This document shows, piece by piece, positions 30,439-32,012 of a DNA stretch of 64,000 nt. Position 1 is the first letter of the stretch. Each line of letters opens with the position of its first letter. This stretch comes from Escherichia coli (GTDB taxonomy: Bacteria > Pseudomonadota > Gammaproteobacteria > Enterobacterales > Enterobacteriaceae), in assembly GCF_003334315.1 (NCBI RefSeq), contig NZ_QOWR01000006.1, one strand, 5' to 3'. The position numbers are program-made.

Positions 30439-32012
30439 CTATTAAATGGCTGATCGGACTTGTTCGGCGTACAAGTGTACGCTATTGTGCATTCGAAACT
30501 TACTCTATGTGCGACTTACAGAGGTATTGAATGAAACGTGCAGTGATTACTGGCCTGGGCATTGTTTCCAGCATCGGTAATAACCAGCAGGAAGTCCTGG
30601 CATCTCTGCGTGAAGGACGTTCAGGGATCACTTTCTCTCAGGAGCTGAAGGATTCCGGCATGCGTAGCCACGTCTGGGGCAACGTAAAACTGGATACCAC
30701 TGGCCTCATTGACCGCAAAGTTGTGCGCTTTATGAGCGACGCATCCATTTATGCATTCCTTTCTATGGAGCAGGCAATCGCTGATGCGGGCCTCTCTCCG
30801 GAAGCTTACCAGAATAACCCGCGCGTTGGCCTGATTGCAGGTTCCGGCGGCGGCTCCCCGCGTTTCCAGGTGTTCGGCGCTGACGCAATGCGCGGCCCGC
30901 GCGGCCTGAAAGCGGTTGGCCCGTATGTGGTCACCAAAGCGATGGCATCCGGCGTTTCTGCCTGCCTCGCCACCCCGTTTAAAATTCATGGCGTTAACTA
31001 CTCCATCAGCTCCGCGTGTGCGACTTCCGCACACTGTATCGGTAACGCAGTAGAGCAGATCCAACTGGGCAAACAGGACATCGTGTTTGCTGGCGGCGGC
31101 GAAGAGCTGTGCTGGGAAATGGCTTGCGAATTCGACGCAATGGGTGCGCTGTCTACTAAATACAACGACACCCCGGAAAAAGCCTCCCGTACTTACGACG
31201 CTCACCGTGACGGTTTCGTTATCGCTGGCGGCGGCGGTATGGTAGTGGTTGAAGAGCTGGAACACGCGCTGGCGCGTGGTGCTCACATCTATGCTGAAAT
31301 CGTTGGCTACGGCGCAACCTCTGATGGTGCAGACATGGTTGCTCCGTCTGGCGAAGGCGCAGTACGCTGCATGAAGATGGCGATGCATGGCGTTGATACC
31401 CCAATCGATTACCTGAACTCCCACGGTACTTCGACTCCGGTTGGCGACGTGAAAGAGCTGGCAGCTATCCGTGAAGTGTTCGGCGATAAGAGCCCGGCGA
31501 TTTCTGCAACCAAAGCCATGACCGGTCACTCTCTGGGCGCTGCTGGCGTACAGGAAGCTATCTACTCTCTGCTGATGCTGGAACACGGCTTTATCGCCCC
31601 GAGCATCAACATTGAAGAGCTGGACGAGCAGGCTGCGGGTCTGAACATCGTGACCGAAACGACCGATCGCGAACTGACCACCGTTATGTCTAACAGCTTC
31701 GGCTTCGGCGGCACCAACGCCACGCTGGTAATGCGCAAGCTGAAAGATTAATTCGCAGTAGGTCGGAGTAGACGCGCCAGCGTCGCATCCGACGTTACGC
31801 GCCAATGCGGCCTCCGGCACTAACGCAAAAGGGAACCTGATGGTTCCCTTTTTCACATCATTGACAATCGCCGCCAGTTCCAGGCAAACTTCCCGCTTTG
31901 TCGATTTCCTTCTGAAAAGACGTACGCGTTAAATCCTGCCAACGCACCGTAACCCTGAAACCAGAGAGATGAGACGGGGATACTCCTCGCCTTGCGCTGC
32001 ATTCTGGAGTAA

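What the first reader, a model, noticed from the sequence alone, without database searches (positions are those of the whole stretch)
30450..30483. Adjacent FadR and FabR operators at fabB, with further FadR boxes at fadL and fadI nearby
Three FadR-regulated promoters are present in the window: fadL (10916-10956, two boxes), fadI (11624-11638) and fabB. At fabB the FadR box CTGATCGGACTTGTTCG abuts the FabR palindrome GCGTACA-AG-TGTACGC. This is the classic dual control of unsaturated fatty-acid synthesis and a useful internal check on the annotation.
Basis: partly seen in the sequence, partly recalled or inferred. Interest (0 to 1): 0.15.

Follow-up and report, generated by a model that had tools for sequence, protein, structure and literature searches.

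The report
Known FadR and FabR operators at fabB

Summary
The window is E. coli chromosome, about 99.4% identical to K-12. The 57-bp K-12 fabB gel-shift probe used in published FadR work matches 30438-30494 base for base, and the two published fadL FadR probes also match exactly.

A FadR matrix built only from sites outside the window ranks fadI first, fabB second and fadL site 1 third among 63,984 positions. fadL site 2 is indistinguishable from chance by matrix and rests on published gel shifts.

The fabA FadR+FabR 34-mer matches fabB at 30 of 34 positions, against at most 24 in shuffles. In 66 distinct Enterobacterales fabB upstream regions the two boxes are 94-95% conserved, against 51-62% in the flanks, and their spacing does not change.

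Against the published start site, 37 bp upstream of the ATG, FadR lies at about -46 to -30 and overlaps the inferred -35. FabR lies at about -28 to -11, in the spacer.

Verdict: observation confirmed, interpretation supported, already known, low interest.

The parts
30448..30464 (+). FadR operator of fabB, GGCTGATCGGACTTGTT. It lies at about -46 to -30 from the published start site and overlaps the inferred -35.
   Evidence: Rank 2 of 63,984 positions with the external PWM. It lies inside the published K-12 FadR gel-shift probe, which matches 30438-30494 exactly. The core CTGATCGGACTTGTT is identical in fabA. Column identity is 94.5% across 66 Enterobacterales upstream regions.
30466..30483 (+). 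FabR operator, GGCGTACAAGTGTACGCT. It has perfect 7-bp arms at 30467-30473 and 30476-30482. It lies at about -28 to -11, filling the -35/-10 spacer and touching the -10.
   Evidence: Marked as the FabR palindrome in the published probe. It is the only hit in the window to the fabA FabR site at up to 3 mismatches. Column identity is 94.2% across Enterobacterales, and it always starts 2 nt after the FadR 17-mer.
30460..30465 (+). Inferred -35 hexamer TTGTTC (3 of 6 consensus bases), inside the FadR box.
   Evidence: Inferred from a 17-bp spacing to TATTGT and from the published start site. The promoter is too weak to pass the consensus scan.
30483..30488 (+). Inferred -10 hexamer TATTGT (4 of 6 consensus bases).
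   Evidence: Position relative to the start site, which is 37 bp upstream of the ATG. No consensus-grade promoter was found.
30494..30494 (+). fabB transcription start, plus or minus 1 nt.
   Evidence: [quoted passage not shown] The ATG is at 30531.
30419..30433 (+). CpxR box GTAAGgctgcGCAAA, an acid-stress activator site.
   Evidence: Published box at -112 to -98 from the start codon, with a footprint at -119 to -94. The sequence is present at that offset. It is poorly conserved: 56% across Enterobacterales, and it is polymorphic within E. coli.
30531..31751 (+). fabB, beta-ketoacyl-ACP synthase I.
   Evidence: NCBIfam equivalog NF005935, 804.9 bits. RefSeq annotation of identical DNA.
28366..30372 (-). 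mnmC, transcribed divergently from fabB, with a GTG start at 30372.
   Evidence: NCBIfam NF002480, 944.9 bits. A divergent mnmC lies within 400 nt of fabB in 80 of 94 gammaproteobacterial loci.
10940..10956 (-). fadL FadR site 1, AGCTGGTCCGACCTATA.
   Evidence: PWM rank 3. The published probe fadL-FadR1 matches 10932-10966 exactly.
10916..10932 (-). fadL FadR site 2, CACTGGTCTGATTTCTA. It is degenerate and overlaps the start site.
   Evidence: The published probe fadL-FadR2 matches 10905-10939 exactly, and gel shifts are reported. The PWM score of 5.4-6.9 bits is not above chance.
9490..10830 (-). fadL, long-chain fatty-acid outer-membrane channel. This is a divergent allele.
   Evidence: NCBIfam NF007988, 832 bits. 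The protein is 77% identical to K-12 FadL.
11624..11640 (-). fadIJ FadR operator, AAGTGGTCTGACCTGAT, centred 35 bp upstream of the fadI ATG.
   Evidence: PWM rank 1, 18.6 bits, 0.01 expected per window. A review places the fadIJ FadR site over the start site.
11667..15121 (+). fadI-fadJ operon.
   Evidence: NCBIfam TIGR02446 (905 bits) and TIGR02440 (1345.7 bits). A terminator after yfcZ at 11503-11531 separates the operon from upstream transcription.

Best explanation
This is the native E. coli fabB promoter with its two adjacent, experimentally characterised operators.

FadR is a GntR-family dimer. It binds the 17-bp pseudo-palindrome at 30448-30464, over and just upstream of a weak -35 hexamer, and activates transcription. 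Long-chain acyl-CoA releases FadR, so exogenous fatty acids lower fabB expression.

FabR is a TetR-family dimer. It binds the 18-bp palindrome at 30466-30483, which fills the spacer between -35 and -10, and represses by hindering RNA polymerase. Its binding is strengthened by unsaturated acyl thioesters and weakened by saturated ones. The promoter output therefore tunes the ratio of unsaturated to saturated fatty acids.

The same FadR protein represses fadL, through two sites over the -10 and the start site, and fadIJ, through one site near the start site, in the same window.

What is shown here: sequence identity to the published probes, PWM ranks, conservation and spacing. What is taken from the literature: protein binding, ligand effects and the start site. 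What is inferred: the -35 and -10 hexamers and the occlusion mechanism.
For: - The window is E. coli, and the intergenic region is present in all 5426 complete genomes.
- Published K-12 probes for fabB and for fadL sites 1 and 2 match exactly. FadR gel shifts on the fabB probe are reported in PMC4537474.
- Direct FabR binding to fabB, fabA and yqfA in vivo is reported in Salmonella, and the ligand dependence is summarised there.
- A review describes FabR as the main regulator of fabB and gives the acyl-ACP sensing model.
- The start site is 37 bp upstream of the ATG.
- With the external PWM, fadI, fabB and fadL site 1 take ranks 1, 2 and 3.
- The fabA composite matches 30 of 34 positions.
- Phylogenetic footprint: the boxes are 94-95% conserved against 51-62% in the flanks. 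Of 82 loci with a FabR motif, 74 have the exact CTGATCGGACTTGTT core 2 nt upstream.
- The operator core is invariant in the divergent E. coli and E. albertii sequences sampled, while the flanks vary.
Against: - Nothing substantive contradicts this reading.
- By PWM alone, fabB without fabA in training (0.93 expected per window), fadL site 1 (about 2.4 expected) and especially fadL site 2 (24-57 expected) are not individually significant.
- No consensus-grade sigma-70 promoter is detected. This fits dependence on an activator but means the hexamers are inferred.
- The primary footprinting papers could not be read here, so binding data are cited through later papers.
- fadR and fabR themselves lie outside the window.
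Confidence: 0.97

Rival explanations
1. The motifs are chance resemblances to loose consensus sequences and have no regulatory role.
For: FadR consensus matching is permissive. About 8 positions per 64 kb score at least 10 bits in shuffles, and fadL site 2 is within the chance range. Perfect 7-N2-7 palindromes occur 6 times in the window against about 4 expected.
Against: The top three PWM ranks all fall in fad/fab promoters. The fabA composite matches 30 of 34 positions, with a shuffle maximum of 24. The block is 94-95% conserved with invariant spacing across Enterobacterales. The sequence is identical to DNA shown to bind FadR.
Confidence: 0.01
2. The conserved 36-bp block is simply the core promoter, conserved for RNA polymerase contact (-35, spacer and -10) and not as transcription-factor operators.
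For: The block overlaps the inferred -35 and abuts the -10. Promoters are often conserved.
Against: Conservation extends upstream of the -35 to about -44. It is highest in the spacer, which polymerase reads least. The stretch 30483-30495, which runs from the -10 to the start site, is less conserved at 71%. The hexamers are poor matches to consensus. The same 34-bp module recurs at the unlinked fabA promoter. Variation in the FabR box is confined to the symmetric positions 3 and 14 and the centre, as expected for a dimer site.
Confidence: 0.02
3. The module serves the divergent gene mnmC as well as fabB, or instead of it.
For: The 158-bp intergenic region is shared, and the mnmC<>fabB arrangement is conserved in 80 of 94 loci. 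The FadR box centre is 84 bp upstream of the mnmC GTG.
Against: No mnmC promoter was identified here. The identical module at fabA has no mnmC neighbour. The literature consulted attributes the sites to fabB only. The mnmC<>fabB arrangement persists in lineages that lack the FadR box.
Confidence: 0.05

Closest known systems
E. coli K-12 fabB promoter (FadR activator site, FabR repressor site and CpxR box)
   Same: The sequence is identical over the whole published 57-bp probe, 30438-30494, and identical at the CpxR box offset. The flanking genes are the same, mnmC and fabB.
   Different: Nothing differs in the operators. The strain is not K-12, being 99.4% identical over the region. A common E. 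coli SNP, A30446T, lies 2 nt upstream of the FadR box in about 43% of complete genomes, and this window carries the K-12 base.
E. coli fabA promoter FadR/FabR module
   Same: The FadR core CTGATCGGACTTGTTC is identical, the spacing to the FabR site is identical, and 30 of 34 positions match.
   Different: The fabA FabR site is an imperfect palindrome, GCGTACA-CG-TGTTAGC, whereas the fabB site has perfect 7-bp arms. This is consistent with the literature statement that FabR dominates at fabB and FadR at fabA, but the link is my inference. fabA also has additional promoters.
Repressive FadR operators of the fad regulon (fadBA, fadD, fadE, fadH, fadM)
   Same: They share the 17-bp pseudo-palindrome family aaCTGGTCnGACC(T/A)Gtt. 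The fadL and fadI sites in the window belong to this class and lie over the -10 and the start site.
   Different: The fabB site lies at about -40 and activates. Its left half reads CTGATC where most repressive sites read CTGGTC, as at fabA; iclR and fadH carry the related CTCATC.

Membership tests
FadR operator (E. coli fad/fab regulon) | A 17-bp pseudo-palindrome matching aaCTGGTCnGACC(T/A)Gtt or a PWM of known sites. | tested here: met
   External PWM: fadI 18.6 bits (rank 1), fabB 12.5-14.4 bits (rank 2), fadL site 1 11.1 bits (rank 3). fadL site 2, at 5.4-6.9 bits, is not above chance.
FadR operator (E. coli fad/fab regulon) | Bound by FadR in vitro and released by long-chain acyl-CoA. | not testable with these tools
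   Taken from the literature: gel shifts with probes identical to window 30438-30494, 10932-10966 and 10905-10939.
FadR operator (E. coli fad/fab regulon) | Position fits the mode of action: about -40 for activation, or over the -10 and start site for repression. | tested here: met
   fabB site at about -46 to -30 from the published start site. The fadL sites span -25 to -9 and -1 to +16 if the start site is 95 bp upstream of the 10836 ATG. The fadI site is 35 bp upstream of the ATG.
FadR operator (E. coli fad/fab regulon) | The cognate fadR gene is present in the genome. | not testable with these tools
   fadR lies outside the 64-kb window. The organism is E. coli, in which fadR is a known core gene (established knowledge).
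FabR operator | An 18-bp palindrome of the fabA/fabB/yqfA type (core ACAnnTGT within GCGTACA-NN-TGTACGC). | tested here: met
   Perfect 7-bp arms at 30467-30482. It is the only hit in the window to the fabA site at up to 3 mismatches. It contains the ACAnnTGTnnnnT core proposed from Salmonella ChIP targets.
FabR operator | Lies immediately downstream of the FadR site, within the core promoter. | tested here: met
   A 1-bp gap between the 17-mer and the 18-mer. The spacing is invariant in 74 of 82 loci that carry the motif. It spans about -28 to -11.
FabR operator | Bound by FabR, with binding modulated by unsaturated or saturated acyl thioesters. | not testable with these tools
   Literature only: ChIP in Salmonella and summaries of in vitro work in E. 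coli. The primary papers are not held.
Phylogenetically footprinted regulatory site | Conserved above its intergenic background across species. | tested here: met
   94-95% against 51-62% column identity in 66 distinct Enterobacterales sequences. The core is invariant in the divergent E. coli and E. albertii sequences sampled.

The most novel reading that the evidence does not exclude
The conserved FadR/FabR module in the shared 158-bp mnmC<>fabB intergenic region might also modulate the divergent tRNA-modification gene mnmC. That would couple membrane-lipid status to wobble-uridine modification. The divergent arrangement is kept in 80 of 94 gammaproteobacterial loci, and nothing here tests mnmC regulation.
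Probability: 0.04. Interest if true: 0.35.

Novelty: already known. Interest (0 to 1): 0.05.

Why it matters
It matters only as a positive control. It confirms that the window is correctly read as the E. coli fadL-fadIJ...mnmC-fabB region, and that motif reading by eye recovered real, experimentally validated operators.

It also gives a calibration point. A small-sample FadR PWM finds the strong sites (fadI, fabB and fadL site 1) at the top of a 64-kb window. It cannot separate a genuine weak site (fadL site 2) from background.

Tried and rejected
- Primary papers not held, so binding and start-site data are cited through later open-access papers. These were Campbell & Cronan 2001, Feng & Cronan 2009 (fadM) and 2011, Zhu et al. 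2009, McCue et al. 2001 and My et al. 2015.
- The sigma-70 consensus scan found no promoter at fabB. The hexamers are therefore inferred from the published start site.
- An asymmetric PWM from 7-8 sites was overfitted, with a mean shuffle maximum of about 13.8 bits. I replaced it with a symmetrised PWM, and the conclusions did not change.
- I looked for a fourth FadR site upstream of accD. The best hit was 2.3 bits, which is not convincing.
- I tested whether a perfect 7-N2-7 palindrome is rare in itself. It is not: 6 observed against about 4 expected.
- Rfam found only the tRNA in the window.
- Several loci fetched in parallel did not appear in the script sandbox, so I re-fetched the region.
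- I did not run the protein-based genome scan. A cheaper DNA pattern on the fabB N-terminus served instead.

Full report
**Observation.** Reading the window and exact string search place CTGATCGGACTTGTTCG at 30450-30466. GCGTACAAGTGTACGC is at 30467-30482 and has perfect 7-bp arms around the centre AG. Both lie in the 158-bp gap between mnmC and fabB. mnmC runs 28366-30372 on the minus strand with a GTG start, and fabB runs 30531-31751 on the plus strand. The interval 10916-10956 holds, on the minus strand, AGCTGGTCCGACCTATA-CTCTCGC-CACTGGTCTGATTTCTA. The interval 11624-11638 is 15 bp of AAGTGGTCTGACCTGAT, which spans 11624-11640 on the minus strand. All the coordinates are correct. The only adjustment is register. 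The canonical FadR 17-mer is 30448-30464 and the published FabR 18-mer is 30466-30483, so one base separates them.

**What the DNA is.** The mnmC-fabB intergenic segment is found in all 5426 complete E. coli genomes, at 99% identity or more in 4659 of them. The window aligns to K-12 MG1655 (positions 2430000-2461856, reverse complement) at 99.4%. NCBIfam equivalog models confirm fabB, mnmC, fadL, fadI and fadJ, and yfcZ matches the DUF406 family model.

**Match to experimentally used DNA.** Two open-access papers from the Feng laboratory list the K-12 oligonucleotides used for FadR gel shifts. The 57-mer fabB probe is TCTATTAAATGGCTGATCGGACTTGTTCGGCGTACAAGTGTACGCTATTGTGCATTC, with the FadR site and the FabR palindrome marked. 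It matches window 30438-30494 exactly. The two fadL FadR probes match 10932-10966 and 10905-10939 exactly, and the two fadL CRP probes match 11067-11111 and 10846-10901. PMC4537474 reports that E. coli FadR shifts the fabB probe. PMC3460868 reports shifts of both fadL sites and their reversal by long-chain acyl-CoA.

I built the matrix only from FadR sites outside the window. fadBA and the two fadD sites came from the published probes. fadE, fabA, fadH, fadM and iclR were located in MG1655 sequence. For fadE, fadH, fadM and iclR, I identified the site boundaries from memory of the literature and confirmed only that the sequences exist there. With a symmetrised matrix the results among 63,984 positions are as follows:

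| Site | Score (bits) | Rank | Expected positions per 64 kb |
|---|---|---|---|
| fadI | 18.6 | 1 | 0.01 |
| fabB | 14.4 (12.5 without fabA in training) | 2 | 0.2 (0.93 without fabA) |
| fadL site 1 | 11.1 | 3 | about 2.4 |
| fadL site 2 | 5.4-6.9 | 19-39 | 24-57 |

The matrix alone therefore validates fadI. It puts all three promoters at the top of the window. It cannot distinguish fadL site 2 from noise, so that site rests on its published gel shift and its position 7 nt from site 1.

**FabR site.** A perfect 7-N2-7 inverted repeat is not unusual: 6 in the window against about 4 expected. The fabA FabR 16-mer at up to 3 mismatches finds only 30467-30482. The whole fabA FadR+FabR 34-mer matches 30 of 34 positions at 30450, against a maximum of 24 in 100 shuffles.

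[quoted passage not shown] It also reports a footprinted CpxR box, GTAAGgctgcGCAAA, at -112 to -98 from the ATG. In window coordinates the start is about 30494 and the CpxR box is 30419-30433. This places FadR at about -46 to -30, over the inferred -35 hexamer TTGTTC (30460-30465). It places FabR at about -28 to -11, filling the spacer and touching the inferred -10 hexamer TATTGT (30483-30488). The hexamers match only 7 of 12 consensus bases and the generic scan reports no promoter. This fits a promoter that needs an activator, but that is my inference. [quoted passage not shown] The two sites then fall at -25 to -9 and -1 to +16 when counted from the 10836 ATG. A strong terminator after yfcZ (11503-11531) shows that fadIJ needs its own promoter, which is where the FadR box lies.

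**Comparative evidence.** One DNA-pattern scan of species-representative genomes with the back-translated FabB N-terminus returned 120 loci, and 114 of them had usable upstream sequence.
- In essentially all Enterobacterales the core CTGATCGGACTTGTT is present, with GC[G/T]TACA-NN-TGTA[C/A]GC starting exactly 2 nt after the FadR 17-mer. The genera include Escherichia, Citrobacter, Enterobacter, Yersinia, Pectobacterium, Serratia, Erwinia, Pantoea, Photorhabdus and Xenorhabdus.
- Of the 114 upstream regions, 82 carry the FabR motif, and 74 of those have the exact FadR core at that spacing.
- In an alignment of 66 distinct upstream sequences, mean column identity is 94.5% for the FadR box and 94.2% for the FabR box. 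It is 51-62% in the flanks, 56% for the CpxR box and 71% for 30483-30495, the stretch that runs from the -10 to the start site.
- Variation inside the FabR box is confined to the symmetric positions 3 and 14 and the central dinucleotide, as expected for a dimer site.
- Edwardsiella keeps the box and adds a second FadR-like palindrome just upstream. Rosenbergiella has lost the left half of the FadR box but keeps the FabR box. Alteromonadales-like loci have a FabR-like element without the enterobacterial FadR box.
- Within E. coli, 3081 genomes carry the exact 57-mer and 2317 differ at one position. In the two one-mismatch genomes I sampled, the difference is A30446T, outside the core. The core is also unchanged in the two most divergent sequences sampled, one E. 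coli strain and E. albertii.

**Mechanism.** The mechanism is taken from the literature and fits the geometry. FadR activates from about -40 and is released by long-chain acyl-CoA. FabR represses from within the core promoter, and its binding is strengthened by unsaturated acyl-ACP or acyl-CoA and weakened by saturated ones. FabR is reported to dominate at fabB and FadR at fabA. The perfect palindrome at fabB, against the imperfect one at fabA, is consistent with that report, but the link is my inference.

**Comparison and novelty.** This is the K-12 fabB promoter itself, not a relative of it. Every defining feature that can be checked in sequence is met, and the binding features are established in the literature on identical DNA. 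Nothing here is new. The only untested idea left open is that the module might also affect the divergent mnmC gene, whose arrangement with fabB is conserved in 80 of 94 loci. I give that about 4%.

**Verdict.** Observation confirmed, interpretation supported, already known. Interest 0.05.

Noticed in passing
window 9490-10590 (fadL coding region): This strain carries a highly divergent fadL allele. The protein is 77% identical to K-12 FadL. The first 80 or so residues are identical and divergence, with indels, follows. The allele is present at 99% identity or more in only 206 of 5426 complete E. coli genomes and at 90-95% in 904. The K-12 type, about 76% DNA identity, is in 4212. The promoter region 10831-11670, with its FadR boxes, is 99.8% identical to K-12, so a recombination boundary lies inside the gene.
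   Followed up: partly
window 1-5828: tRNA-Arg(CCU) argW, at 5754-5828 on the minus strand, is followed directly by dsdC, dsdX, dsdA, emrK and emrY. The CPS-53 prophage that occupies this site in K-12 is absent. The contiguous arrangement covers at least 80% of the query in 2642 of 5426 genomes.
   Followed up: partly
window 30419-30433: The published CpxR box of fabB, GTAAGgctgcGCAAA, is present. It is polymorphic within E. coli and in E. albertii, where A30421C gives GTCAG. It is only 56% conserved across Enterobacterales, far below the FadR and FabR boxes.
   Followed up: partly
window 30446: A common E. coli SNP, A to T, lies 2 nt upstream of the FadR 17-mer. 3081 genomes have the exact 57-mer and 2317 differ at one position; in the two one-mismatch genomes sampled the difference is this SNP. 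The operator core is invariant in all sequences sampled.
   Followed up: partly
window 38040-39124 (accD and its upstream region): accD lies in the window. A review states that FadR modulates all fab genes, which could make accD a fourth FadR-responsive promoter. The best FadR PWM hit upstream is only 2.3 bits, CCGCGGTTCGACCACTT at 38064.
   Followed up: partly
window 11503-11531: A strong intrinsic-terminator-like hairpin, 13 pairs followed by a T run, lies directly after yfcZ and separates it from the fadIJ promoter.
   Followed up: no
L058 and L056 (Edwardsiella); L035 and L025 (Rosenbergiella); L072, L086, L113, L030 and L051 (Rheinheimera, Alishewanella and related loci): There are variants of the fabB operator architecture. 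Edwardsiella has an extra FadR-like palindrome, ATCTGGTTTTACCAGCG, directly upstream of the conserved box. Rosenbergiella has lost the left half of the FadR box but keeps the FabR box. Alteromonadales-like loci have a FabR-like GTGTACAACTGTGCGC followed by CTGAAATTGGACCAGTT in place of the enterobacterial arrangement.
   Followed up: partly
window 28366-30530 and loci L010-L129: The divergent mnmC<>fabB gene pair is conserved in 80 of 94 loci with enough upstream sequence. The intergenic distance is about 155-175 bp in Enterobacterales.
   Followed up: partly
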